From Acidobacteriota bacterium (GTDB lineage Bacteria; Acidobacteriota; JAAYUB01), in assembly GCA_017996395.1 (NCBI GenBank), contig JAGOHA010000003.1, positions 20,427-84,426 on the forward strand: DNA of 64,000 nt. The letters run 5' to 3'. Of this stretch, positions 49,631 through 61,105 are shown one piece after another. The notes beneath the pieces were generated by a model. That model was not told the DNA's origin, ran no database searches, and saw nothing but the letters and a program-made list of their open reading frames with translations. A program made the translations under genes and the position numbers. Position 1 is the stretch's first letter; each line of letters begins with the position of its first letter.

Positions 49631-49740
49631 CTCTCCGGGCATTCTGATCATATCCCTTCCAGAAAAAAATTGGTATCGAAGCTGGAAACTTTAAGCTAAA
49701 ATAACCGTCTTTTTTATCGAACTTGATTCTTCGAGGAGAC

Positions 49741-50202
49741 ATGATGAAGAAACTGATCGCCACCGCCCTGATGCTCGTACTGGCCCTATCCATCGCCCCT
49801 CTGGCAGTTATCGGGAAGACAACTATCGCCTTCACGGAATCCGAGTACGCCAAATCACTGAACTTGAAACTGAACCTGCAGAAACCCGATTTGAACGCCT
49901 ACGTTGGCACCGGTAAGGAAATGATCGTGATCAAGACGAAGAAGGAAATCGTGTACTACGAGCGGTTCACCTGGCTGAGCTCGGCCATGCCGGCCGATGA
50001 GGCCATCCGCCATGCCGCCTATCTCAATTTCCTGTCCCAGGCGGCCGATATTCCCAGCGGCACCCCGGAGTATGATCAATTAGCCGCCGCCGTGAAGTCG
50101 AACACCGCTGAATTCATCCTGCGGGGCCTGTTCCAGGTTCGCGTCCGCGCCGAGAACGGCGACAAAGGCGCCAAGCACTTTGTAGAAATCTACGTCAAGT
50201 AA
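49741..50202 (+). CDS. Small secreted hypothetical protein (low-GC gene)
   Basis: Signal peptide MMKKLIATALMLVLALSIAPLAV; AT-rich upstream region; terminator downstream. Confidence 0.5.
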   Translation: MMKKLIATALMLVLALSIAPLAVIGKTTIAFTESEYAKSLNLKLNLQKPDLNAYVGTGKEMIVIKTKKEIVYYERFTWLSSAMPADEAIRHAAYLNFLSQAADIPSGTPEYDQLAAAVKSNTAEFILRGLFQVRVRAENGDKGAKHFVEIYVK

Positions 50203-50204
50203 GA

Positions 50205-51599
50205 TTAGTCATCTTCACGGAGCCGTTCCTTCGGGACGGCTCTTTTTTTTTGCCAGTCAAGTGTCCACGCTCCGAACACCCCGCCGCCGACACAGCCGAA
50301 CCAGACCGCCAGCAGCCAGTTGACTCCGGTGAGGACCGCCCCGAATCCAACCAGAGCACCAGCCAGGCTCAACCCGGCAGCCAATCGGTTACCGATCCGC
50401 ATACTCTGACCGGCCACTGCCAGCAGGAGCAGCGGACTGACAGCCGCGGCATAAATCTGGTAACCCGCCAGAAGCGCCCCGATGATCGACGGATAGATGA
50501 GCGCGGTGGCCAGCGAAATGAGCAACACCAGGGGAACCGCGACGCGCATCCGTCGTCGAAAAGCGTCCCGATCCGGGTGGGCCGGCTCCGGCTTCAGCTC
50601 CATGACCAGGATCGAGGATGCCGTCAGCAGGCAGGTGTCGGCCGACGAAATGACGGCGGCCAGCAAGCCCGCAAGCACCAGGCCTTGTCCCCACTCGGGC
50701 AGCACGGCGACGGTCAGGGACGGCAACAAGGCGTCCCCTGTGGTCAAGGGCAAGACCGCCGCACCGATCACGCCGATGACGGAGATCCAGATGCTGAACG
50801 GGATCAGCAGCGTGCCGCAGGCGATCGCCGCTCGACGGAATGTCACCGCGGTTCGCGCGCAGAGAAATCTGGAAAAAATGTCCGGTCCCGTGGCGAACAG
50901 GATAAAGGTCACCAGAGCCATGGACAGATAATCGCCACTCCTGACAGGGAGGTCGGCGATGAACTCCGTCCAGCGTGCCTGCAACAGCGCGGCTGGCTCT
51001 CCCGCTGCAAGTGCCCGCCAGGCCGCCACCCCCAGCATGGTGATGCCGATGGTCAGCGCACCCAACTGCAGCAGGTCCGTCCGCAACACCGATTTCTGCC
51101 CGCCGGCCGTCACATAAACGCCGAGGAGAAGGGCGGCAATCGCCATCGCCAACCACGCCGGGCAACCCGCCACAGGCCCGACAATCCAGCCGATGGCCAG
51201 CAGTTGGGCGGCGATCACGCCGATCCAGCCCGTCACGATGAGCAGCCCGGACAAGCGCCGGACCAGCGGCCCGTACTGGCACCCCAGATACTCCGGCACC
51301 GTGTAGACCGTCTCGGTCTGTCGAAGTCGTCGCGCGGCCCAACCGGCGGCGATCAGGCCCAGCGCTCCGCCCCACAGCCACGCCGACGCGCCGAAACCGC
51401 TCGTCGCCGCCAGGCCGCAGATTCCCAGTGTTGCCGAGGCGCCGACGATCGTCGCCCCCAGGCTGCCGAAAACCTGCCAGAATGCACCCCGTCGGCCGGC
51501 CACGAAATAATCGTCCGGTCGACGGGAGGCCCGGGCGTGCCAAAGTCCGGCGCCAGCGACCGCCGCCAGGTAAGCGATGATGATGACTGCGCGGACCAA
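50205..51599 (-). CDS. Sodium:solute symporter-like polytopic transporter
   Basis: About 13 predicted TM segments; the N-terminus resembles SSF (FVAGRRGAFWQVFGSLGATIVGASATLG). Confidence 0.55.
   Translation of the reverse strand: MVRAVIIIAYLAAVAGAGLWHARASRRPDDYFVAGRRGAFWQVFGSLGATIVGASATLGICGLAATSGFGASAWLWGGALGLIAAGWAARRLRQTETVYTVPEYLGCQYGPLVRRLSGLLIVTGWIGVIAAQLLAIGWIVGPVAGCPAWLAMAIAALLLGVYVTAGGQKSVLRTDLLQLGALTIGITMLGVAAWRALAAGEPAALLQARWTEFIADLPVRSGDYLSMALVTFILFATGPDIFSRFLCARTAVTFRRAAIACGTLLIPFSIWISVIGVIGAAVLPLTTGDALLPSLTVAVLPEWGQGLVLAGLLAAVISSADTCLLTASSILVMELKPEPAHPDRDAFRRRMRVAVPLVLLISLATALIYPSIIGALLAGYQIYAAAVSPLLLLAVAGQSMRIGNRLAAGLSLAGALVGFGAVLTGVNWLLAVWFGCVGGGVFGAWTLDWQKKRAVPKERLREDD
50219..50251 (+). 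terminator. Rho-independent terminator for the 49741 gene, embedded in the last codons of the convergent minus-strand gene
   Basis: GGAGCCGTTCC-ttc-GGGACGGCTC followed by TTTTTTTTT. Confidence 0.65.
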
Positions 51600-51606
51600 T
51601 CCGGCC

Positions 51607-52965
51607 TCAGGCGTCGGGTTTGTCGCCGGAGGGAGCGCCCACGCCCCCCTTCCGAAGCAGGATGAACAGCCAGTACCCCAAACCGATCACCAACGCCAGA
51701 ATCACAGCGATGAGCACCGTCCGTTCCACCTGTTCCCGGCGGGAGGCGCCCGCCTGGGGGTCGTAGTCAGGATTGCCGGAGACCGCTCCCATGGTAACCT
51801 GGGTACGGGCCTGATCGGCCCAGGCATCGCTGCCGCCAAAACGATCAATGTCGTAATTGGGGGCGCGGACCGAACGGGCGCCCACCATCAGCCGGTACGG
51901 TTGCCGATCGTTGTCAGCCACGAAGAAAATCTCCCGGGTCGGGCTTTCAAATGACAGGGAACGGATTTCCAGTGGCGGGCTGTCGCCATTTTCTATGGCG
52001 ATCCGGTACTGCGCGATACCGGTACCCGGCAGATCCAGATGCAACCGTCGCTCCGGCCGACCGCCCAGCGGGAATGCGCAGATGGTGCCGCTGGCGAAGG
52101 GTTGCCAGCTCCCATCACGGCCGTTCGGGCTGCTTTCAACGGCCACCGTGCGGTAGAAAACCGGCGTGGTCACGTCGAACTGAATCCGACCGGCGGGAAG
52201 GCGCACGGGAATATCGATCACCGTCTGCCGGCTGGCATTCTGAACGGCCGGCACGGGCCGCAGCGGCCAGCGGTCGATGCGGGGGCCTCCGGGTTCCTCC
52301 TGCACCGATCGTCCATGGACGGCGTCGATTCTAAGCTGCTTCGCCCAGCTTCGACTGAAGATGATCTCCAGCCCCGTGGCGGTCACCTGTACGGTGTCAC
52401 GGTTCTCCGGCGCCGCTTCAGAATCCGTGATCCGCAGAACCAGCGCTCGCGCATCGGTGGCGGGAAAATCCACCCGAGTTCGCCGCAGGTCTACGTGAGA
52501 TGAAAAGTCATAAATTGTGTCCTGGCCGATAACGGGGCCGGCTGGATCGTTCGCGATCACCGTGACCTGTTTCCGGAAGTCTCGTTCCGGGATCGTGAAA
52601 TCGATCCCGCTCACGGCGCCTATCGCCTCAGGCACCGTGACGGTCAGCTGAACACTCCCCCTGCTATTTTCGTAGCTGGTGATTGTGAGGGGGGCTTCGG
52701 TTATCTTGGGCTGCAGACGGCTGAAACGGACGACGAATGGAATTTCGCGCCCGTCGGCGTCATACAGACGCATGTCCGCCAGATTGGATTCGCTGCGGGT
52801 CAACAGCTCCAGCGGGAGCGGGATTCGGCAGATGGCGTGCCGCCGGATTGCGCCCCGGATTTCCGCCTGGTATTTGAACTGCTCCACAGTGGGGCTGTCA
52901 ACCTGGGCCATCGTCGCTCCGGCGGCGATCGCCAGCCACACCCCCAACAGCTGATGCCGGCTCAT
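51607..52965 (-). CDS. DUF3999-like protein (signal peptide, C-terminal TM)
   Basis: Starts MSRHQLLGVWLAIAAGATMA. The 940-aa track ORF extends upstream in an artefactual frame. The start overlaps the DUF2339 stop by ATGA. Confidence 0.5.
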   Translation of the reverse strand: MSRHQLLGVWLAIAAGATMAQVDSPTVEQFKYQAEIRGAIRRHAICRIPLPLELLTRSESNLADMRLYDADGREIPFVVRFSRLQPKITEAPLTITSYENSRGSVQLTVTVPEAIGAVSGIDFTIPERDFRKQVTVIANDPAGPVIGQDTIYDFSSHVDLRRTRVDFPATDARALVLRITDSEAAPENRDTVQVTATGLEIIFSRSWAKQLRIDAVHGRSVQEEPGGPRIDRWPLRPVPAVQNASRQTVIDIPVRLPAGRIQFDVTTPVFYRTVAVESSPNGRDGSWQPFASGTICAFPLGGRPERRLHLDLPGTGIAQYRIAIENGDSPPLEIRSLSFESPTREIFFVADNDRQPYRLMVGARSVRAPNYDIDRFGGSDAWADQARTQVTMGAVSGNPDYDPQAGASRREQVERTVLIAVILALVIGLGYWLFILLRKGGVGAPSGDKPDA

Positions 52966-54935
52966 GGTTGTCCCTCCGGTTTGTCCGCATCCGGCCGAGG
53001 CCCCAGGAGCACTTCCTTGTAGCGGTGGTAAAGGTACGACACGCCGACAAGCAACAACCCCAGGACAAAGCATGAAATGATGCGGTAGGGGGTTTTCACT
53101 TCGGCCATGTCCCAGATGAGCACCTTGAGGATCGTCAGGCTGAACAACGCCAGCGACAGCCGACGCAGCGACGGCCGGTTCCACCGGAAACCCAGCAGCA
53201 TGAGCATCACCGAGTACAAGCTCCAGAGCACCGACACCGCAGCAAACCGCCCGGTGGGCAGATAGTCGTAGAAAAACGCGTTGACTTCCAGGTTCAGCAC
53301 GCCGAACAGCAGCACGCTCCAGCCGATTGCGGCCAGGACGGCCAGCGTGTTGCGCAGCGCCTGATGCTCCGGGCGTGGCAGGTAGTACTTGACCAGCCGG
53401 TAAAACAGGATCGTCAGCCCGATGACCACCGCGGCGGACAGCCAGCGGTCCACGGCGCAGCTCATGTAACCGGCCGGGAAACAGAGGCTGTCCAGATCCA
53501 GATCGAAATTGTCGAGATAATCCCAGAGCAGCAGCTTGCCGCCGGCCAGAGTCAGCACACCCGCGCCGGCGAGCTGCAAGGTGGGGCGTCCCAGCCGCAG
53601 TCCCATCCACAGAAGCGCAACCGCCTGGGCCGCCCAGAACACGGTGATCCAATGTTCCGAGAAAATGATGGGCACGGTGATGAACAGAAACAGCATCGCC
53701 TTGGCCAGCAGCACGACGAACGCGCCCACACTCCGCTGGCCCCGCCGCTCCAGAAAGGCGGCCAGTGCGAGGAAGATGAACGCGTACGTCACCGATACAA
53801 CGCTGGCCCAGATACCGTCCGAACGGTCGGCGATGAGCCCATAGCTCACGCTGAAGGCCAGCAAGGAGTTCGGCGTGATGATCAGGAAGCCCCACAGTCG
53901 ATCGATCCGGCCTCGGAAGCACTGGTAAGCGAAGGGCATCAGGGTGTAGATGAGGTAGAAGATGTTTAGGAAAATGATTGCGGGCCAGAACTTCGACGCA
54001 TTGTAGTGGGTGACACCCCAGGCGAAGTAGGTGATGTACGTGAAGATGAAGCCCAGGGCGTTCAGCAAGGCCCACTGCTTGCGGAAGGCGATGACCAGGA
54101 GGCCCAGGTTCAGGACCGTAAGGTAGGTCATCAGGGCGATCTGGTTGTCCTGGCCGGTGCTGAGCAAGAGTGGGGTCAGAAAACCGCCGATCATCGCCAG
54201 GGCCGCCAGCCACTTGTTGTCGTAGACCACTGCCAGGGCACAGCCCAGCGCCGTGATCAGGACCATCACGCCAAAGGCAAGGGCCTGTCCGAACAGCTGG
54301 TAGATCTGGAAACCGGCGAACGTCGCGAAATAGAGGACCGCCACGCCGCCGCCCGCCAGACAGAGCCCGAAAACCCGGTAGCCCCGACGGCGGAAGAGCT
54401 CTCCCGCTCCGAGCAACCCGATCCCCCACAGAAACGCCAGTGCGACCCGGCCGGCCGGACCGATCCAGGCCCGGTCAAAGGAGTATTTCAGAAAGTACCC
54501 CACCGCCAGCACGATGATGATCACTCCGATGGCCAGGATCCACTTCTGACCCAGGCGAACCTCCATCTCCGGCGCCCGGGCGACGGTGCGCGGCGCCTGT
54601 TGCGGGGGGACGGTTGGCGCCGGAGCCGGCTCTGTTTTCGGCTGCTGCTCCGCTGCGGCGGATCGGACTGCGGCGAGCGTCCCGGCTGCCTGAGATTCGG
54701 GCTGAGGTTCGACCGGCGTGGCCACCAGATGCTCGCTCAAAGCCGTGACGCGACCATCGAGCTGGTCCAGATTCTCCCACAACCCGCGGACCTGCTTTCG
54801 GACGACCTGCAGCTGTTGCCGCAGTTCCTGAAAAGCCCGAGCCCGCTCCAGTTCGTCATCCGAAAACCTGTGGCCGCACTGCATGCAGTGCCGGGCCAAT
54901 TCGGCGATGCTCGCATGACATTGGGGGCACTTCAC
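52962..54935 (-). CDS. DUF2339-like polytopic membrane protein with an N-terminal zinc ribbon
   Basis: MKCPQCHASIAELARHCMQCGHRF (CxxC...CxxC), coiled coil, Pro/Ala linker, then about 20 TM helices. Confidence 0.55.
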   Translation of the reverse strand: MKCPQCHASIAELARHCMQCGHRFSDDELERARAFQELRQQLQVVRKQVRGLWENLDQLDGRVTALSEHLVATPVEPQPESQAAGTLAAVRSAAAEQQPKTEPAPAPTVPPQQAPRTVARAPEMEVRLGQKWILAIGVIIIVLAVGYFLKYSFDRAWIGPAGRVALAFLWGIGLLGAGELFRRRGYRVFGLCLAGGGVAVLYFATFAGFQIYQLFGQALAFGVMVLITALGCALAVVYDNKWLAALAMIGGFLTPLLLSTGQDNQIALMTYLTVLNLGLLVIAFRKQWALLNALGFIFTYITYFAWGVTHYNASKFWPAIIFLNIFYLIYTLMPFAYQCFRGRIDRLWGFLIITPNSLLAFSVSYGLIADRSDGIWASVVSVTYAFIFLALAAFLERRGQRSVGAFVVLLAKAMLFLFITVPIIFSEHWITVFWAAQAVALLWMGLRLGRPTLQLAGAGVLTLAGGKLLLWDYLDNFDLDLDSLCFPAGYMSCAVDRWLSAAVVIGLTILFYRLVKYYLPRPEHQALRNTLAVLAAIGWSVLLFGVLNLEVNAFFYDYLPTGRFAAVSVLWSLYSVMLMLLGFRWNRPSLRRLSLALFSLTILKVLIWDMAEVKTPYRIISCFVLGLLLVGVSYLYHRYKEVLLGPRPDADKPEGQP

Positions 54936-55061
54936 GACGACCTCCTCGGACCGATTCGAATGGTGCGGTGCACGTTGGGGACATTGTCAGCGATACCCCC
55001 ACCGAAGTCAATCGCATCAGGGCCACACCGCGACACTTCCCCGCGGCGGTTTGCATAAAAC

Positions 55062-55100
55062 AAAAAAAGGGCAGCCTGGATTCAGGCATGCCCTGTAAAA
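55062..55100 (-). terminator. Rho-independent terminator downstream of tRNA-Phe (minus strand)
   Basis: Minus-strand read AGGGCA-loop-TGCCCT followed by TTTTTTTG. Confidence 0.55.
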
Positions 55101-55103
55101 GGA

Positions 55104-55179
55104 TGGTGCCGAGGGACGGAATTGAACCGCCGACACAGGGATTTTCAGTCCCCTGCTCTACCGGCTGAGCTACCTCGGC
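55104..55179 (-). tRNA. tRNA-Phe (anticodon GAA), CCA encoded
   Basis: Reverse complement GCCGAGGTAGCTCAGCCGGTAGAGCAGGGGACTGAAAATCCCTGTGTCGGCGGTTCAATTCCGTCCCTCGGCACCA: 7-bp acceptor stem, anticodon loop CTGAAAA, T-loop GGTTCAATTCC. Confidence 0.9.
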
Positions 55180-55398
55180 CACCGCTTCGAAGCGATATCG
55201 CCAAACCCAAAGAACCGAGCGAAGGGCTGGATTATAAAGACGCCTCCGGGCCCTGTCAACTGCTTTTTATCCCGCCGTCATGTTCGGGCGCACATGCAGA
55301 TCACGGCAGGGACGGGATTTACCATCTTCGCCGTCGGCAAAACGGATTGCAATTCGACACCCCATCTGCTAGATTGAACTGCTTGACAGGAAGCGCAC

Positions 55399-56073
55399 AT
55401 GTACAAGGGCAACCGGATCACGGTGGTCATCCCGTGCCTCAATGAAGAGGAAGGGATTCCGCTCGTCCTGAAACAGATTCCCAACTTCGTGGACGAGGTC
55501 CTCGTCGTCGACAACGGTTCCACCGACCGGACCGCCGACATCGCCACCTCCTTTGGCGCCACGGTCATCCAGGAAAGCATCCGCGGGTATGGCCGGGCTT
55601 ACAAGACCGGTCTGGCCAACGCCCAAGGGGATATTATCATCACCCTGGACGGCGACCATTCCTACCCTGTGGACGCCATTTCGTATCTCATCGAGGCCCT
55701 GCTCCACTCCGGCGTCCGCTTCGTCTCGGCCTCACGGTTTCCGGTACAAAATCCCGAAGCCATGTCCTTCAAGCACAAATTCGGCAACATCGTGCTCAGC
55801 CTGTGCCTGTCGCTGCTCTACTTCCGCTGGGTGCGCGATTCGCAGTCGGGCATGTGGATCTTCTACCGGGAAATCCTGAAGCAGTTCCGGCTCCGCAGCG
55901 ACCTGATGGCGTTCTCGGAAGAGATCAAGATCGAGGCCATTCGCAACCGGGAAGTCGGATTTCGGGAGATCCCCATCAACTTCTCGAACCGGATGGGCGA
56001 AATCAAACTCCAACCGTGGCGAGACGGTTTCCGCAACCTGCTGTTCCTGTTCCAGAAGCGGTTCCGGCCGTGA
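55399..56073 (+). CDS. GT2-family glycosyltransferase (polyprenyl-phosphate sugar synthase-like)
   Basis: ITVVIPCLNEEEGI...VLVVDNGSTDRT...TLDGDHSY (GT-A DxD region). Confidence 0.75.
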   Translation: MYKGNRITVVIPCLNEEEGIPLVLKQIPNFVDEVLVVDNGSTDRTADIATSFGATVIQESIRGYGRAYKTGLANAQGDIIITLDGDHSYPVDAISYLIEALLHSGVRFVSASRFPVQNPEAMSFKHKFGNIVLSLCLSLLYFRWVRDSQSGMWIFYREILKQFRLRSDLMAFSEEIKIEAIRNREVGFREIPINFSNRMGEIKLQPWRDGFRNLLFLFQKRFRP

Positions 56074-57044
56074 ACACACCGCCGCCAGCATGCCCGATCT
56101 GCGGGGCCGCGGACTCCTGCCGCTGGCTGGAGAACTCCGATTTCCTGTTTCACACGTCGCCCGTCGTCCACACCCTGCACCGCTGTCTGTCCTGCCGATG
56201 CGCATTTCTGCACCCCATGCCGGAACCCCGGGCGCTCGCGGATGCCTATCCGCGCCCCTACTGGTGGATCGCCCAGGACCGGCCCCGGGGCCTGTCGCAC
56301 AAGCTGGAGACGGTCTACCGGGAGGCGGTGTTGCGCCATCACGTCCACGTGGCTCGACGGCATCTGGCGGGGTCCGCGCCGAAAGTCCTCGATGTGGGCT
56401 GCGGCAGCGGCACCTTTCTCCATGTGCTGCGCCGGGTGACCGGCGTCGCGGGCGAAGGGCTCGACGCCTCGCCCGATGCCGCCCAGGCGGCCCAGGCTGC
56501 TTACGGGCTCCGGGTGCACGTCGGCGACATCGACACCGCCGATCTGCCCGAGCAGGGCTACGACCTTATCACGCTGTTCCATGTGCTGGAGCACCTGCCG
56601 CAACCCGGTGACGCGCTGAGCCGCGTCGGCCGGTGGCTGGCGCCCGGCGGCACCCTGCTGCTGCAGGTCCCCAACCTGGACAGCTGGCAATGCCGCTGGT
56701 TCGGCCGGCGCTGGAGCGGCCTGGACATCCCCCGCCACGTGGTGGGCTTCCAGCCGCACGCCATGGCCGACCTGCTTCGCCGGATCGGTTTCGAGCCCGG
56801 GCCGCCCCGGTTTTTCTCGCTGCGCGACAATGCGGCGGCGATCGCCACGTCGCTGGCCCCCGCCCTGGACCCCGTAGCTATGGCCGTCCGCGGCGACAAC
56901 CGCTTGGCGATTGCACGAAAAGTGTTATACTTCGCCCTGTTGGCGGCCGCGCAGCCACTGGCCCTGCTGGAGGCGATGGCCGCACGCGGCGGCACATTCT
57001 TCCTGCCGGCCCGCCGGATCATGACCCCACGGAGTCACGCATGA
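56070..57044 (+). CDS. Class I SAM-dependent methyltransferase with N-terminal Cys4 zinc-ribbon-like motifs
   Basis: GTG start overlapping the upstream stop. CPICG...C...CLSCRC, then VLDVGCGSGTFL (motif I) and ...LLLQVPN... Confidence 0.65.
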   Translation: MNTPPPACPICGAADSCRWLENSDFLFHTSPVVHTLHRCLSCRCAFLHPMPEPRALADAYPRPYWWIAQDRPRGLSHKLETVYREAVLRHHVHVARRHLAGSAPKVLDVGCGSGTFLHVLRRVTGVAGEGLDASPDAAQAAQAAYGLRVHVGDIDTADLPEQGYDLITLFHVLEHLPQPGDALSRVGRWLAPGGTLLLQVPNLDSWQCRWFGRRWSGLDIPRHVVGFQPHAMADLLRRIGFEPGPPRFFSLRDNAAAIATSLAPALDPVAMAVRGDNRLAIARKVLYFALLAAAQPLALLEAMAARGGTFFLPARRIMTPRSHA

Positions 57045-57568
57045 GCCAGATGCATCACATCAATATCGTTTTCACGGGTGGAACCATCGAAAAAATCTAC
57101 GACGAAGTTCAGGGCGGCATCGACAACATCGAAAGCTGGATCGACCGTGAATTCCCGCCGCTGCGTCTCCCCTATGTCCGGCTGCATTCGCTGCGGCTCA
57201 TGAACATCGACAGCCTCCAGATGACCGACGAGCACCGCCAAGTAATCGCCCAGACCATCCAGCGCCTCCAGGAAGACGGTCGTCCCATCGTCCTCACCCA
57301 TGGCACGGACACCATGGTGGACACCGGACGCTACATCAAGTCGCATCTGTCGCAGATCAAGGTCCCCATCGTCCTGACCGGCGCCATGCTGCCGCTGGTG
57401 GTGCAAAACAGCGACGGCATCCAGAATCTCACCGAAGCGCTCTTCGCCACGAAATTCCTCCCCCCCGGCGTCCACATCGTCTTCCACAATGAGGTCTACG
57501 ACGTGGACCGGGTCCGCAAAAATCGCCAGGCCAAAACCTTCGAACGGATTGAAAACGGCGGGAAGTGA
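57041..57568 (+). CDS. Standalone L-asparaginase N-terminal-domain-like protein (about 175 aa)
   Basis: IVFTGGTIEK (asparaginase GGTI nucleophile motif) and LTHGTDTMVDTG (HGTDTM motif). No asparaginase C-domain follows. Confidence 0.55.
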   Translation: MSQMHHINIVFTGGTIEKIYDEVQGGIDNIESWIDREFPPLRLPYVRLHSLRLMNIDSLQMTDEHRQVIAQTIQRLQEDGRPIVLTHGTDTMVDTGRYIKSHLSQIKVPIVLTGAMLPLVVQNSDGIQNLTEALFATKFLPPGVHIVFHNEVYDVDRVRKNRQAKTFERIENGGK

Positions 57569-57943
57569 TCAGTCCTTGGCCGGCGGCTCCTCGCCTCCTA
57601 AAGGCGATCGGTATTCCAGTCGGGCTTCCAGCAAGGCCAGCCTCTGGGCCAGCACCTGGTTCTGACGGGTCAGCTTGGACATCGCCAGTCCCTGGTGCAG
57701 CATGATCGCGAACAGGAACAGGATCGCCAGATAGAACACGAGCGATGGCGGATAGTAGATGCCCACCAACTGAGCCAGCCGGTTCAGCCAGCCTTCCGAA
57801 AGGATGAGCACCTGGATGCAGACGATGGCCGCCAGCCACAGGAGGGAGTACTTCTCCTTCAGTTTTTCCCGCCGGAGGAAGTGGATGATGGCCAGCAGGA
57901 GCAGGCCGTTGATCACTGTGGTGAAGATCTGGACGAACGTCAT
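57569..57943 (-). CDS. DUF2304-like small membrane protein (partner of GT2 polyprenyl-phosphate sugar synthases)
   Basis: 3 TM and a C-terminal coiled coil; sits immediately downstream of a GT2 gene, as in the known GT2/DUF2304 pairs. Confidence 0.45.
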   Translation of the reverse strand: MTFVQIFTTVINGLLLLAIIHFLRREKLKEKYSLLWLAAIVCIQVLILSEGWLNRLAQLVGIYYPPSLVFYLAILFLFAIMLHQGLAMSKLTRQNQVLAQRLALLEARLEYRSPLGGEEPPAKD

Positions 57944-57957
57944 GCGGCACCTCCGGC

Positions 57958-58668
57958 TCAGTAGCGGATCATATCGATCAAGATGGCCAGCGTTACCTTG
58001 ATCATGTAATACCCGGATCGCAGAAACGTGATCGACGACATGCCGGCGGATCGCTCGCGCATGGTCACCGGCACCTCGTCGACGCACATCTGCCATTTAT
58101 ACAGCATGATGATGACTTCGGGCTCCGGATAGTCGTCGGGGTAAAAGCGGCAGAGGCGCTGCATGGCCCGGCGGCTGTACAGGTGGAACCCTGACGTGGC
58201 GTCGGTCACCCGGAATCCCGTCAGCGCCCGGATCAGGCGGCAGAGGAAACCGATGGCCAGCCGCCGCAGCCAGGAGGATTGGAAACCGGCGCGGGAGAGA
58301 AAGCGGGAACCGACCAATAGGTCCACCGGCTGCCGGCGGATATGATCGAAGAAGCGGTGGATGTCGCTCGGATCATGCTGGCCATCACCGTCCAGGCGGA
58401 GCACCCAGTGGAATCCTTCGGCCAGCGCGTAAGCGATTCCGGTCTGGATGGCGGCGCCGATTCCCATGTTGAACGGCAATGTGACGACGACCGCCTCGTG
58501 GGCACGCGCCACCGCGGCGGTCCGGTCGGCGGATCCGTCGTCGATCACCAGCAGAGTCGCGGCGGGAAACTCGCGGTGGAGTTCGTCCAGGACAGCGCCG
58601 AGATTGCCCTCCTCGTTGTATGCGGGGATCAGAAAGAGCACTTCCCGGAGATCGAACGGCCGGTTCAT
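57958..58668 (-). CDS. GT2-family glycosyltransferase (DPM-synthase-like)
   Basis: VLFLIPAYNEEGNL...LLVIDDGSADRT...LDGDGQHDP. Start chosen at MNRPF (58668) rather than the track start at 58887. Confidence 0.7.
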   Translation of the reverse strand: MNRPFDLREVLFLIPAYNEEGNLGAVLDELHREFPAATLLVIDDGSADRTAAVARAHEAVVVTLPFNMGIGAAIQTGIAYALAEGFHWVLRLDGDGQHDPSDIHRFFDHIRRQPVDLLVGSRFLSRAGFQSSWLRRLAIGFLCRLIRALTGFRVTDATSGFHLYSRRAMQRLCRFYPDDYPEPEVIIMLYKWQMCVDEVPVTMRERSAGMSSITFLRSGYYMIKVTLAILIDMIRY

Positions 58669-59669
58669 CGCCGCATCCTCCCGCGGCTCCCCTGCCCGCC
58701 CCGGAGGCTTGGCGTCAGGAAGCCGAGCACCCACCCTGACATTCGCGCAAACGCCCGGAGCGTGAACACGGTCAGGCCGAGAGGCCACAAACCGAATTCC
58801 CGCGCCTCGCGGGCGACGCCCGTCGCGGCCCACCCTTCGAGCAGCAGGAGGGCGCCGGTGGCGCCACCCGCCGCCCAGCCGGCCCACGGCACGCCGGCCG
58901 CGGCCGACAGGGCGGCTCCGGGGATCACCAGCGCCAGCGCGACGTCCAGCATGTCTCGCGGCCGGGTGTAGTCATCGCCGGACACGAAGGCTGGATGCTT
59001 GCGGTACAGCCGGCTCCGCCAGAAGCCGTGGATGTATTGCGTGCGGAGATACCCCCCGATCCGTTCCGGATGGTGATGAGCCACCCGGCAGCCGGGACGG
59101 AAGGCGATCCGGTAACCGGCGTGACGGATGCGGTACGACAGGTCGTTGTCCTCGGCGCTGGCGGTTGGGAATGACTCGTCGAAGCCGCCTACCTGTTCCA
59201 GCACGGTGCGCCGCACCGCCAGGTTGTAAGTGCCGCCGGCCCTCACGAACGCGGGCATCCGCCGGTGGCGGAAGGCAATCTCGGCCTGGATGAGCCGGGC
59301 CAACGGTCGCTCACCGTTGGCGGCCGCGTAACTGCCGGCCACCGCCCCCACGTCAGCGGCTTCCAGGCCGTCGACCATGCCGGCAACCCATCCGGGCGGC
59401 GGGATGCAGTCGGCATCGGTGAAACAGATCACTTCACCACCAGCCCGGCGCCAGCCGGTGTTCCGGGCGGCGGCGGGGCCGCGGTTCGGCTGCCGGATCA
59501 GCGTGACGCCTCGCCGGCTGATGCGCTCCGCCGTATCGTCGGTGGACCCGTCGTCCACCAGCACGAGCTCCAGTTCGTGCCCGCCCGATTCCAGCCGCTG
59601 GAGTGCATCGAGCGTTCGCTCGATATAGCGGGCGCTGTTGAAACATGGCACCACGACCGAAACGTTCAT
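58665..59669 (-). CDS. GT2-family glycosyltransferase with a C-terminal membrane anchor
   Basis: VSVVVPCFNSARYI...LVDDGSTDDT...FTDADC. Start chosen at MNVSVV, about 59669. The longer 634-aa track ORF overlaps the upstream gene in another frame. Confidence 0.65.
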   Translation of the reverse strand: MNVSVVVPCFNSARYIERTLDALQRLESGGHELELVLVDDGSTDDTAERISRRGVTLIRQPNRGPAAARNTGWRRAGGEVICFTDADCIPPPGWVAGMVDGLEAADVGAVAGSYAAANGERPLARLIQAEIAFRHRRMPAFVRAGGTYNLAVRRTVLEQVGGFDESFPTASAEDNDLSYRIRHAGYRIAFRPGCRVAHHHPERIGGYLRTQYIHGFWRSRLYRKHPAFVSGDDYTRPRDMLDVALALVIPGAALSAAAGVPWAGWAAGGATGALLLLEGWAATGVAREAREFGLWPLGLTVFTLRAFARMSGWVLGFLTPSLRGGQGSRGRMRR

Positions 59670-61105
59670 GGCCGGCGCCTCCCCCGCAGGCGCTCCAGGT
59701 TGTAGCGCAGGTAGCTCCACGCACCGTAGGCCTTGCGCCGGACGTCCCCCCAGGAACGCACCGCCGTGAGCATCCGGAGCAGCTGGCGTGGCCGCAGGTA
59801 GAATTCGCGCAGGCCGCGGTCGATCAACTCGTCGATCTCCGACTTCGACAACTGCGGATAGCTCAGCAGAGTGACCTGTTCGCCGTCGGCGCTGATCCAC
59901 TCCGTCCAATCCTGCGGCACCAGGAAGCCGTTCTCGACAGCCCAACGGTACATCTCGGTGCCCGGATAGACGCAGATTCCCGAAATCTGGATCGTGTCCA
60001 GCGGCAGCCGTTTGGCGAACGCGATGGTCTGGAGGGCAGACTCCCGGGTTTCGCCAGGCGCACCCACCATGAAACAGCCGTGGACGATGAAGCCCAGCTC
60101 GTGCGCCCGGCGCGCGAACGCCTCGCTCTGTTCCAGCGTCACGCCCTTGCGAACGGCGTCCAAAGCGGCCTGGGTGCCGAATTCGAATCCCGTCATGAGC
60201 ATCCGGCAACCGGCGCGCCGCATCAGCGGAAGCAGTTCCAGGTCCATGTCTACCCGGGCATTGCAGCTCCAGGCGATCCGGATGCCGCGACGCAGGATCT
60301 CCTCGCACACGCCGGCGACGTGGGGGCGAGAGGCCACGAAGGTGTCGGTTTCGAACATGATCTCGCGCAGTCCGGGAAACAGCGACAGATCGTGCGCGAT
60401 CTCGTCCACCACCAGTTCCGGCCGGCGCATGCGCAGACGGTGCCCCACCATGAGCTGGGGATCCTGGCAGAAGGTACATCGCGCGAAGCAGCCCCGCCCT
60501 GACAGGAGCGTGAGAAAGGGATACAACTTGCCGGCGTCGCGGTACCACTCCGGTCGCACGTGACGCCACGCCGGAAACGGCAATTCGTCCACGTCCAGCG
60601 GCGGCGGCAGCGGGTTGTGCACCACCCCGCCGTCGCCGGTGAAGGAAATTCCGGCTATGCTCATATCATCCGGCCGGTCGGCCAGTTCGCGCAGGATGAA
60701 ATCGTATTCGCCCCGCACGATTCGGTCCACCGCCCCGGCCGCGATCCGGAAGCTGTCGTCCGGCTCGGCCGAGACGTGGTTGCCCACCAGCACTGTGAAC
60801 GCCCCGGAGCGTTCCTTGATCGACCGGGCCAGGCTGATGTCGCTGTATATGGATGGCGTCGTGGTGTGCAGCACGGCCATATCCGGCCGGAATGCGTCCG
60901 CCGCTTCCCGGATGTCCGCCGGTTTCAGATTGAGGGCAGCTCCGTCTATGAATCTCAGATCGTGTCCCGCCGCCTCCAGGACGGCCGTGGCGACGAGCAG
61001 GTAATCGGGATGGCGCTGGACGCGTCCGCGGGAACGCGCCGCCCAGCGGGCCGAGCGGACGAAATCGTCCATGAACGGAGGATTCAGGATCAGGATTCTG
61101 GCCAT
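59666..61105 (-). CDS. Cobalamin (B12)-binding-domain radical SAM enzyme (class B)
   Basis: N-terminal B12-binding-like Rossmann region (ARILILNPPF...), radical SAM motif GCFARCTFC (CxxxCxxC). Confidence 0.65.
   Translation of the reverse strand: MARILILNPPFMDDFVRSARWAARSRGRVQRHPDYLLVATAVLEAAGHDLRFIDGAALNLKPADIREAADAFRPDMAVLHTTTPSIYSDISLARSIKERSGAFTVLVGNHVSAEPDDSFRIAAGAVDRIVRGEYDFILRELADRPDDMSIAGISFTGDGGVVHNPLPPPLDVDELPFPAWRHVRPEWYRDAGKLYPFLTLLSGRGCFARCTFCQDPQLMVGHRLRMRRPELVVDEIAHDLSLFPGLREIMFETDTFVASRPHVAGVCEEILRRGIRIAWSCNARVDMDLELLPLMRRAGCRMLMTGFEFGTQAALDAVRKGVTLEQSEAFARRAHELGFIVHGCFMVGAPGETRESALQTIAFAKRLPLDTIQISGICVYPGTEMYRWAVENGFLVPQDWTEWISADGEQVTLLSYPQLSKSEIDELIDRGLREFYLRPRQLLRMLTAVRSWGDVRRKAYGAWSYLRYNLERLRGRRRP

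What the first reader, a model, noticed from the sequence alone, without database searches (positions are those of the whole stretch)
51607..54935. Translationally coupled DUF2339 (zinc-ribbon polytopic)/DUF3999 pair of unknown function
The upstream protein starts with a Cys4 zinc-ribbon (CPQC...CMQC), then has a coiled coil, a Pro/Ala linker and about 20 TM helices. The downstream protein is secreted and has a C-terminal anchor. The two are joined by an ATGA overlap. This gene pair recurs across phyla but has no assigned function. The topology is a cytosolic Zn-ribbon, a large membrane domain and an exported partner. That suggests a signalling or envelope-assembly role.
Basis: partly seen in the sequence, partly recalled or inferred. 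Interest (0 to 1): 0.5.

Follow-up and report, generated by a model that had tools for sequence, protein, structure and literature searches.

The report
Arc3-type membrane defence gene pair
This gene pair is real and widely conserved, but it has a published function: it belongs to the Arc3A/Arc3B system, which in Pseudomonas protects the membrane against injected phospholipase toxins, so this is a new acidobacterial member with an unreported zinc-ribbon N-terminus.

Summary
ORF A (52962..54935, minus strand, 657 aa) matches DUF2339 (311 bits). ORF B (51607..52965, minus strand, 452 aa) matches DUF3999 (54 bits). They are joined by an ATGA overlap.

A has a conserved Cys4 zinc ribbon, a conserved heptad coiled coil, a disordered Pro/Ala linker and 18 TM helices (not about 20). 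B has a type-I signal peptide, two discoidin/CBM32-like beta-sandwiches and a C-terminal TM helix.

In 80 related loci from more than 10 phyla, 52 of the 74 with enough downstream sequence carry the DUF3999 gene directly downstream. In 27 of those the overlap is 4 nt.

The claim of "no assigned function" is outdated. DUF2339/DUF3999 is Arc3A/Arc3B (PA5114/PA5113; eLife 2022, PMC8926400). Arc3A prevents lysophospholipid accumulation caused by T6SS phospholipase toxins. A 2025 preprint confirms the protection with other lipases. The molecular mechanism is still unknown.

This pair is a new member of that family. It belongs to a short subfamily with three differences: a cytosolic zinc ribbon, fewer TM helices, and a B protein that is not a lipoprotein. 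Neither protein has a solved structural relative. I found no support for a signalling or envelope-assembly role.

The parts
52962..54935 (-). ORF A: Arc3A-like DUF2339 polytopic membrane protein, 657 aa, GTG start
   Evidence: Pfam PF10101 scores 311 bits. It has 469 homologues at E<1e-5, the best at 92% identity in Acidobacteriota MAGs. The exact protein is HPB28498.1/MBP7294637.1. It shares 30% identity (E 5e-38) with the Enterobacter DUF2339 protein.
54864..54935 (-). Cytosolic Cys4 zinc ribbon (aa 1-24, CPQC-x10-CMQC)
   Evidence: C3, C6, C17 and C20 are at least 90% conserved in A2. A Cys4 motif is present in 77 of 80 loci; the other three are cut at the 5' end. Pfam UPF0547 and Zn_ribbon_3 score only 21.5 and 17 bits, below their cut-offs.
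54723..54860 (-). Coiled-coil helix (aa 26-71)
   Evidence: AF2 predicts a single helix at 26-71 with pLDDT about 75-83. Heptad a/d positions 38, 42, 45, 52, 56, 59, 63, 66 and 70 are 96-100% hydrophobic in 55 homologues.
54579..54722 (-). Disordered Pro/Ala/Gln-rich linker (aa 72-119)
   Evidence: It holds 10 P, 12 A and 6 Q in 48 aa. pLDDT is below 50 over 72-107 and 111-117.
53022..54578 (-). 18-helix transmembrane domain (aa 120-638), N-in/C-in
   Evidence: AF2 gives 18 helices. Loop charges fit an N-in topology: K+R 8 inside and 3 outside, D+E 2 inside and 9 outside. Conservation is higher on the outer side: loops 0.66 against 0.45, and 27 of 40 conserved polar residues lie there.
53502..53660 (-). 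TM-hairpin repeat copy 1 (aa 426-478)
   Evidence: hhalign of 401-520 against 521-645 gives probability 87.6%, E 3.5e-6. The repeat HMM scores 71 bits here. The roughly 800-aa long forms have three copies at about 135-aa spacing.
53097..53252 (-). TM-hairpin repeat copy 2 (aa 562-613)
   Evidence: The repeat HMM scores 70 bits here.
52962..52965 (-). ATGA stop/start overlap of A and B, with GGAGG at 52973-52977
   Evidence: Read directly from the sequence. A 4-nt overlap occurs in 27 of 52 related loci and a TAATG overlap in 2 more. The Enterobacter pair has the same overlap.
51607..52965 (-). ORF B: Arc3B-like DUF3999 protein, 452 aa
   Evidence: Pfam PF13163 scores 54.2 bits. The B profile against Enterobacter DUF3999 gives hhalign 97.5%. 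The family has 8288 representative clusters at E<=1e-3.
52906..52965 (-). Type-I signal peptide (aa 1-20, cleavage ATMA|QV predicted by eye); no lipobox Cys
   Evidence: Read from the sequence. An N-terminal hydrophobic signal is present in nearly all of the 52 partner proteins, and only 5 of 52 match a lipobox-like pattern.
52426..52878 (-). Beta-sandwich domain 1 (aa ~30-180), discoidin/CBM32-like
51871..52323 (-). Beta-sandwich domain 2 (aa ~215-365), carrying the NGDSPP motif (aa 326-331), invariant in the close-plus-long-form set A1
   Evidence: Strands are from AF2. The invariant N325-P330 columns are in alignment A1.
51646..51747 (-). C-terminal TM anchor helix (aa 407-440) with conserved Trp432 and Leu436
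   Evidence: A hydropathy peak lies at 417-435 and AF2 predicts a helix. W432 is at least 90% conserved and L436 is invariant in 47 sequences. 44 of 48 complete partners have a C-terminal TM helix.
54983..55011 (-). Weak sigma-70-like promoter candidate (TTGACT-17-GACAAT) about 48 nt upstream of the A start
   Evidence: Consensus scan, 9 of 12 matches. This is a pattern match only.

Best explanation
The two genes are an Arc3A/Arc3B-type membrane-protection module from an uncultured Acidobacteriota bacterium. A is an 18-helix inner-membrane protein. Its conserved surface faces the outer leaflet and periplasm. Its cytosolic N-terminus carries a zinc ribbon and a coiled coil, which probably oligomerises it. 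B is made in step with A through stop/start coupling and is exported. It stays attached to the inner membrane by a conserved C-terminal helix. Its two discoidin-like beta-sandwiches sit over the outer face of A. By analogy with Pseudomonas Arc3, the complex most likely limits damage from phospholipase A activity (T6SS lipase toxins or other sources). It would keep detergent-like lysophospholipids from accumulating in the cytoplasmic membrane. The molecular step is not known for any member: it could be lysolipid sequestration or hand-off, or blocking of the lipase at the membrane surface.

Shown here: the anatomy, topology, family membership, coupling and co-conservation. Shown in the literature for homologues: the phenotype, the lipidomics and the A-B association. 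Inferred: that this function holds in this organism, that the coiled coil oligomerises, and that B docks on A.
For: Family membership: Pfam PF10101 at 311 bits and PF13163 at 54 bits. These are the criteria Ting et al. used to define Arc3A and Arc3B homologues (methods text). A aligns with a gammaproteobacterial DUF2339 at 30% identity over aa 39-476, E 5e-38. The B profile matches that protein's DUF3999 partner at hhalign 97.5%.

Pairing: 52 of 74 informative loci from more than 10 phyla have DUF3999 directly downstream, and 29 of 52 have overlapping stop and start codons. Pairwise identities of A and of B correlate at r=0.91. No other neighbour is conserved.

Function of homologues: Arc3A is needed against Tle3 and prevents LPE and MLCL accumulation. 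Distant Arc3A homologues complement. Arc3A and Arc3B co-immunoprecipitate. The pathway is independent of Aas/LplT (PMC8926400). Protection against TseL and Tle1 was confirmed independently.

Outer-face bias: the conserved polar and charged residues of A lie mainly on the outer side. B is exported, and its TM helix carries a conserved Trp.
Against: There are no experimental data for the zinc-ribbon short subfamily or for any Acidobacteriota member. Similarity to proteobacterial Arc3A covers only the N-terminal two thirds of the TM domain. PA5114 and PA5113 themselves could not be fetched for direct comparison. P. aeruginosa Arc3A has 35 predicted TM helices against 18 here. Arc3B there is a predicted outer-membrane lipoprotein, whereas B here has no lipobox. 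22 of 74 loci lack B. The Gac/Rsm control seen in Pseudomonas does not exist outside Gammaproteobacteria. The role of the zinc ribbon is unexplained. Even in Pseudomonas the mechanism is unknown, and Arc3B contributes little in pairwise assays.
Confidence: 0.6

Rival explanations
1. The pair is a housekeeping membrane-lipid homeostasis device rather than an antagonism defence. It would buffer or redistribute lysophospholipids, cardiolipin or PE made by the cell's own lipid turnover or by envelope stress. Toxin protection would then be a side effect.
For: The family is spread across most bacterial phyla, including monoderms. There is no linkage to T6SS, immunity genes or other defence genes in 80 loci and no PADLOC match. 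A phospholipid-synthesis gene sits beside the pair in Peptoclostridium. Ting et al. themselves note that endogenous and environmental lysolipids are a constant threat.
Against: In P. aeruginosa, Arc3A loss gave no change in LPE stability and no defect in PE regeneration without antagonism. Expression there is induced by the danger-sensing Gac/Rsm pathway.
Confidence: 0.2
2. The pair is an envelope glycan or lipid transport or assembly machine. B's CBM32/discoidin-like domains would bind a cell-envelope glycan and A would act as the membrane conduit.
Against: The glycosyltransferase neighbours are on the other strand, beyond a tRNA gene, and are not conserved in related loci. A shows no fold similarity to GT-C enzymes, flippases or any solved transporter. 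It has no ATPase or energy-coupling partner. Discoidin folds also bind phospholipid membranes (established knowledge for factor V/VIII C2 domains).
Confidence: 0.1
3. The pair is a transmembrane sensor. B and the outer face of A would detect an envelope signal, and the cytosolic zinc ribbon and coiled coil would pass it to a cytoplasmic partner.
For: The zinc ribbon and coiled coil are conserved and cytosolic, joined by a flexible linker. Zinc ribbons often mediate protein or nucleic-acid contacts (general knowledge).
Against: There is no kinase, cyclase, anti-sigma (HxxxCxxC) or DNA-binding domain. No regulator gene is conserved nearby. Proteobacterial members lack the zinc ribbon, and proteobacterial homologues of that kind are the ones shown to protect. 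An 18-35 helix array is far larger than any known sensor needs.
Confidence: 0.1

Closest known systems
Arc3A (PA5114) / Arc3B (PA5113) of Pseudomonas aeruginosa, antagonism resistance cluster 3 (Ting et al., eLife 2022, PMC8926400)
   Same: Both share the same two Pfam families (PF10101 and PF13163) and the same gene order and strand with tight coupling. A is a dense polytopic membrane protein without catalytic motifs. B is an exported protein with a C-terminal inner-membrane helix. Both pairs are widely co-conserved.
   Different: A here has 18 TM helices against 35 predicted in PA5114. It carries an N-terminal Cys4 zinc ribbon that the paper does not mention and that is absent from the enterobacterial homologue, which starts with a TM helix instead. 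B here has a type-I signal peptide, not the predicted lipoprotein signal, so it is unlikely to bridge to the outer membrane. There is no estA-like gene and no Gac/Rsm control. No functional data exist for this subfamily.
Enterobacter hormaechei plasmid pair HV295_RS21690 / RS21695 (DUF2339 869 aa, DUF3999 459 aa)
   Same: It has the same 4-nt overlap. A is 30% identical over the coil, linker and first 13 TM helices, including the LSTG motif. B has the same size and layout: signal peptide, sandwiches and C-terminal TM helix.
   Different: A starts with a TM helix in place of the zinc ribbon and has a longer C-terminal TM array. Its B matches the Pfam model end to end at 302 bits, against 54 bits here.
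LplT/Aas lysophospholipid transport and re-acylation system
   Same: It handles the same threat, phospholipase-generated lysophospholipids in the inner membrane. aas genes neighbour arc3 genes in many bacteria according to Ting et al..
   Different: There is no sequence or fold relationship: LplT is an MFS transporter and Aas an acyltransferase. Arc3A acts independently and does not contribute to PE regeneration. No aas-like gene family recurs among the neighbours of the pair in the 80 related loci, and none of the ORFs scanned next to the pair in the window is one.
Discoidin / F5/8 type C / CBM32 galactose-binding-domain-like beta-sandwiches
   Different: The window's own B does not reach significance for PF00754. 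Sequence identity is 6-17%. The ligand is unknown. These domains are binding modules, not a system.

Membership tests
Arc3A / DUF2339 (PF10101) | Match to PF10101 above the gathering score (the criterion used by Ting et al.) | tested here: met
   311 bits against a cut-off of 33.6.
Arc3A / DUF2339 (PF10101) | Large, unusually dense polytopic membrane protein without catalytic motifs | tested here: met
   AF2 gives 18 TM helices with very short loops. Pfam and NCBIfam find no enzymatic domain. This is fewer than the 35 helices in PA5114.
Arc3A / DUF2339 (PF10101) | Direct sequence similarity to a proteobacterial member | tested here: met
   30% identity, E 5e-38, to the Enterobacter DUF2339 protein. 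PA5114 itself was not available to compare.
Arc3A / DUF2339 (PF10101) | Protects against phospholipase A toxins and prevents LPE/MLCL accumulation | not testable with these tools
   This needs competition assays and lipidomics. It is known only for Pseudomonas, plus four complementing homologues from other Pseudomonas species, Burkholderia and Citrobacter.
Arc3B / DUF3999 (PF13163) | Match to PF13163 above the gathering score, encoded next to the DUF2339 gene | tested here: met
   54.2 bits against a cut-off of 30, covering aa 158-427. The gene is directly downstream with an ATGA overlap.
Arc3B / DUF3999 (PF13163) | C-terminal inner-membrane TM helix | tested here: met
   Hydropathy peak at 417-435 and AF2 helix at 407-440. 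Present in 44 of 48 partners.
Arc3B / DUF3999 (PF13163) | N-terminal lipoprotein signal (outer-membrane anchoring, periplasm-spanning), as predicted for PA5113 | tested here: not met
   The signal peptide MSRHQLLGVWLAIAAGATMA|QV has no Cys. Only 5 of 52 partners match a lipobox-like pattern. A DUF3999 partner also exists in a monoderm.
Arc3B / DUF3999 (PF13163) | Physical association with Arc3A | not testable with these tools
   There is only indirect support: stop/start coupling, correlated divergence at r=0.91 and conserved Trp/Leu in the TM helix.
Zinc ribbon (PF13248 / UPF0547 PF10571) | Two CxxC knuckles, and a profile match above the cut-off | tested here: inconclusive
   The Cys4 pattern is at least 90% conserved and AF2 pLDDT is about 81-83. 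Pfam scores of 21.5 and 17 bits are below the cut-offs of 29 and 27. Some homologues do pass in the precomputed Pfam data.
Discoidin / F5/8 type C / CBM32 | Beta-sandwich jelly-roll fold with a profile match | tested here: inconclusive
Two-component or anti-sigma signalling proteins | Kinase, anti-sigma (ZAS) or other output domain, with a linked regulator gene | tested here: not met
   Pfam and NCBIfam find no such domain. No regulator gene is conserved nearby.
GT-C glycosyltransferases / lipid flippases / transporters | Fold similarity of the TM domain to a solved member | tested here: not met

The most novel reading that the evidence does not exclude
The short zinc-ribbon form may show the minimal Arc3 machine, and that machine may work differently from the published sketch. 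A would be a new kind of membrane fold: nine helical hairpins, partly built from duplicated modules of about 135 aa. They could be arranged like an alpha/alpha toroid, with conserved charged residues at the outer-leaflet level able to corral lysolipids. A discoidin-like B would cap this array while anchored only in the cytoplasmic membrane. B partners exist without lipoprotein signals and even in a monoderm, so the periplasm-spanning model would not be general. The cytosolic zinc ribbon and coiled coil would add oligomerisation or a damage signal.
Probability: 0.15. Interest if true: 0.7.

Novelty: new member of a known kind. Interest (0 to 1): 0.3.

Why it matters
Arc3 is one of the few known non-immunity defences against interbacterial phospholipase toxins, and its mechanism is unsolved. 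A compact 18-helix version is common in Acidobacteriota, Nitrospirota, Elusimicrobiota, Spirochaetota, Planctomycetota and Desulfobacterota. It comes with a simple, non-lipidated partner, which makes it a more tractable target for cryo-EM and reconstitution than the 35-helix Pseudomonas protein.

Three observations constrain mechanistic models. Conservation is concentrated on the outer-leaflet side. B is discoidin-like. B also occurs in a monoderm. For genome annotation, DUF2339/DUF3999 pairs can now be labelled Arc3A/Arc3B-like rather than "function unknown".

Tried and rejected
- NCBIfam gave no match for either protein, and PADLOC gave none.
- The third word-indexed homologue search, using a 47-sequence B profile, returned only 13 proteins. 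B's structure therefore had to be predicted from a shallow 16-sequence alignment.
- The afdb50 fold library was not available.
- PDB sequence searches with both profiles found nothing below E 0.3.
- The SSF transporter 7 nt downstream of B looked like a third operon member. It is conserved only in the closest relative, L001, so I rejected it as part of the system.
- Clustering of neighbours in 80 loci found no third conserved gene; the largest cluster covers 8 of 80 loci and consists of generic families.
- In the 22 loci without B, the downstream genes are unrelated: kinase, CheW, succinyl-CoA ligase, polyprenyl synthase and Peptidase_C92.
- Other papers mentioning DUF2339 (S. maltophilia evolution, P. 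syringae Tn mutant, Leptospira transcriptomes) give only incidental listings.
- PA5114 and PA5113 sequences could not be obtained with the available tools.
Full report
**1. What is in the sequence**

The minus strand of 51607..54935 holds two ORFs.

- ORF A is 52962..54935 (657 aa). It starts at a GTG that lies 5 nt after a GGAGG.
- ORF B is 51607..52965 (452 aa). It starts at an ATG whose last two bases are the first two of A's TGA stop, giving ATGA at 52962-52965. A GGAGG lies 7 nt upstream, inside the end of A.
- Upstream lies a tRNA-Phe(GAA) gene at 55104..55179 (-). It has its own perfect sigma-70 consensus promoter and a terminator-like hairpin. A weak promoter-like site follows, about 48 nt before the start of A.
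- Gene callers used on other assemblies of the same organism give the same 657-aa gene. On three of the four contigs shown they also give the 452-aa gene and the 4-nt overlap.
- The exact proteins are already in NCBI as "DUF2339 domain-containing protein" and "DUF3999 family protein" from Acidobacteriota MAGs.

**2. Family assignments**

Pfam gives DUF2339 (PF10101) at 311 bits (cut-off 33.6) for A. It gives DUF3999 (PF13163) at 54.2 bits (cut-off 30) for B. NCBIfam has no model for either protein.

**3. Anatomy of A**

- Zinc ribbon. CPQC-x10-CMQC occupies residues 3-20. All four Cys are at least 90% conserved in a 55-sequence alignment (A2). A Cys4 motif is present in 77 of 80 related loci, and the three exceptions are cut at a contig end. 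The Pfam zinc-ribbon models stay below their cut-offs.
- Coiled coil. AF2 (mean pLDDT 76.5, pTM 0.47) predicts one long helix at 26-71. Its a/d heptad positions from 38 to 70 are 96-100% hydrophobic across homologues.
- Linker. Residues 72-119 are Pro/Ala/Gln-rich, and most of the segment has pLDDT below 50.
- Membrane domain. There are 18 TM helices between 120 and 638, not about 20.
- Topology. With the N-terminus inside, loop charges follow the positive-inside rule: K+R is 8 inside and 3 outside, and D+E is 2 inside and 9 outside.
- Conservation. Outer loops are more conserved than inner loops (0.66 against 0.45). Outer helix halves are more conserved than inner halves (0.76 against 0.65). 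27 of the 40 conserved polar residues lie on the outer side. Examples are K150, R163, T260, D263, N264, K467, D472, R497, E550, K604, D609 and R618.
- Internal repeat. The C-terminal part contains a 53-aa TM-hairpin motif twice, at 426-478 and 562-613. hhalign gives 87.6% probability, E 3.5e-6. The roughly 800-aa relatives have three copies at about 135-aa spacing. Module duplication may therefore contribute to the variable helix number in the family.

**4. Anatomy of B**

- Signal peptide. The N-terminus (MSRHQLLGVWLAIAAGATMA|QV) looks like a type-I signal peptide and has no Cys.
- Fold. AF2 (pLDDT 78, pTM 0.69) gives two beta-sandwiches at about 30-180 and 215-365, plus a helix at 407-440.
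- TM helix. It carries a conserved Trp (W432) and an invariant Leu (L436). This suggests specific packing rather than a plain anchor.
- Partners in related loci. The 52 partner proteins have a median length of 448 aa. They have signal-like N-termini, a lipobox-like pattern in only 5 of 52, and a C-terminal TM helix in 44 of 48.

**5. Co-conservation**

- Survey. A scan of one genome per species found 403 relatives of A. The best 80 loci come from Acidobacteriota, Nitrospirota, Elusimicrobiota, Spirochaetota, Planctomycetota, Desulfobacterota, KSB1, Verrucomicrobiota and others.
- Adjacency. A profile built from B's homologues finds a DUF3999-like ORF directly downstream on the same strand in 52 loci. 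Six loci end too soon to tell. 22 loci have unrelated genes there instead.
- Junctions. Of the 52 junctions, 27 are 4-nt overlaps, 2 are TAATG, and most of the rest are small gaps or short overlaps.
- Divergence. A is more conserved than B, with mean pairwise identity 44% against 29%. The two identity matrices track each other at r=0.91.
- No third partner. No third gene is conserved. The SSF transporter 7 nt downstream of B in the window recurs only in the closest relative.
- Annotated examples. In an Enterobacter hormaechei replicon, PGAP annotates DUF2339 (869 aa) and DUF3999 (459 aa) with the same 4-nt overlap. The window's A aligns to that A at 30% identity (E 5e-38), and the B profile matches that B at 97.5% hhalign probability.
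- Family size. The DUF3999 family has 8288 representative clusters at E<=1e-3.

**6. What is known**

A full-text search for the two DUF names led to Ting et al., eLife 2022 (PMC8926400).

- In P. aeruginosa, PA5114 (DUF2339) is Arc3A and PA5113 (DUF3999) is Arc3B, forming "antagonism resistance cluster 3".
- Arc3A is the most important cellular factor for surviving the T6SS phospholipase Tle3 of B. thailandensis.
- Without it, cells accumulate lysophosphatidylethanolamine and monolysocardiolipin.
- Distant Arc3A homologues complement the defect.
- Arc3A and Arc3B co-immunoprecipitate, and some organisms fuse them.
- Arc3B has only an auxiliary effect.
- The pathway is independent of the LplT/Aas re-acylation route.
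- The authors defined homologues by exactly these two Pfam families.
- A 2025 preprint (10.1101/2024.10.26.620397) recovered arc3A in a CRISPRi screen. It showed protection against V. cholerae TseL and A. baylyi Tle1.
- The mechanism is still open. The authors suggest lysolipid sequestration and turnover, or interference with the lipase.
- The eLife text swaps the names Arc3A and Arc3B in a few sentences. The assignment used here follows its gene numbers and Pfam statements.

**7. Comparison and membership**

The window's pair meets the family criteria that can be tested here: both Pfam matches, adjacency and coupling, a dense polytopic A, and a B with a C-terminal helix. It differs in four ways.

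- A is short: 18 helices against 35.
- A has a zinc-ribbon N-terminus. The paper does not mention one, and the enterobacterial protein replaces it with a TM helix.
- B lacks the lipoprotein signal predicted for PA5113.
- There is no Gac/Rsm control and no estA-like gene.

**8. Most likely mechanism**

I take the pair to be an Arc3-type module that works at the outer face of the cytoplasmic membrane. A supplies a large, conserved, charge-studded outer-leaflet surface. B supplies a discoidin-like cap, held by its TM helix. The cytosolic coiled coil probably oligomerises A.

The expected outcome is that lysophospholipids produced by phospholipase A do not build up. The anatomy, the topology and the pairing are shown here. 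The phenotype is shown only for proteobacterial homologues. The transfer to this organism and the A-B docking geometry are inferred.

The rivals, with my estimates, are:

- housekeeping lipid homeostasis (0.2);
- glycan or lipid transport or assembly (0.1);
- signalling (0.1).

Their tests are listed in the Rival explanations section.

**9. Verdict**

This is a new member of a known kind, with modest additions: the zinc-ribbon and coiled-coil subfamily, the outer-side conservation bias, the hairpin module repeat, the discoidin-like fold of B, and a DUF3999 partner in a monoderm. The interest score is 0.3.

Noticed in passing
L087:5523-6803 (Peptoclostridium acidaminophilum plasmid NZ_CP007453): In this monoderm (Bacillota), the gene overlapping the end of the DUF2339 gene by 29 nt is annotated "hypothetical protein". 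It is a clear DUF3999 homologue: Pfam 55 bits, F5_F8_type_C 34 bits, and hhalign 99.8% to the B profile including the C-terminal TM helix. [quoted passage not shown] A CDP-alcohol phosphatidyltransferase gene lies just upstream.
   Followed up: partly
window 55104-55259 (-): The tRNA-Phe(GAA) gene is preceded by a perfect sigma-70 consensus promoter (TTGACA-17-TATAAT, 55231-55259). A terminator-like hairpin at 55074-55087 follows it, directly upstream of the Arc3-like operon.
   Followed up: partly
window 50205-51599 (-): A sodium:solute symporter family gene (Pfam SSF, 81 bits) starts 7 nt after the stop of B on the same strand, so it is probably co-transcribed. The arrangement recurs only in the closest relative (L001) and not in the other 79 loci.
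   Followed up: yes
L048:10393-11433: In a Thermodesulfovibrionales MAG, the gene overlapping the end of the DUF2339 gene is a Peptidase_C92 (YaeF/YiiX permuted papain, NlpC/P60-like) protein instead of DUF3999. This is a single case. It may be relevant because some NlpC/P60-superfamily members act on lipids.
   Followed up: no
P0128-P0132, and P0133 onward: Most DUF3999 representatives are about 660 aa and contain the two-sandwich module twice, with a second DLRL...VPY and NGDNP motif. The 450-aa form paired with zinc-ribbon DUF2339 is the single-module version.
   Followed up: partly
window 51607-52965 (-); NCBI records HPB28499.1, HQO25896.1, HNU00049.1: Public annotations give B four different starts (398, 434, 444 and 452 aa). 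The shorter ones remove the signal peptide. The ATGA overlap, the GGAGG 7 nt upstream and the signal peptides conserved in homologues all favour the 452-aa start.
   Followed up: yes
window 55399-61100: Upstream of the tRNA lies a cluster of GT2 glycosyltransferases, a class I methyltransferase, an asparaginase-like gene, DUF2304 and a B12-binding radical SAM gene. It looks like a glycan or lipid modification locus. It is not conserved next to Arc3-like pairs elsewhere.
   Followed up: no
window 49723-50202 (+): This 159-aa ORF has a signal-peptide-like N-terminus and no Pfam match. It lies between the SSF gene and an OsmC gene, with a strong hairpin plus T-run terminator at 50219-50243.
   Followed up: no
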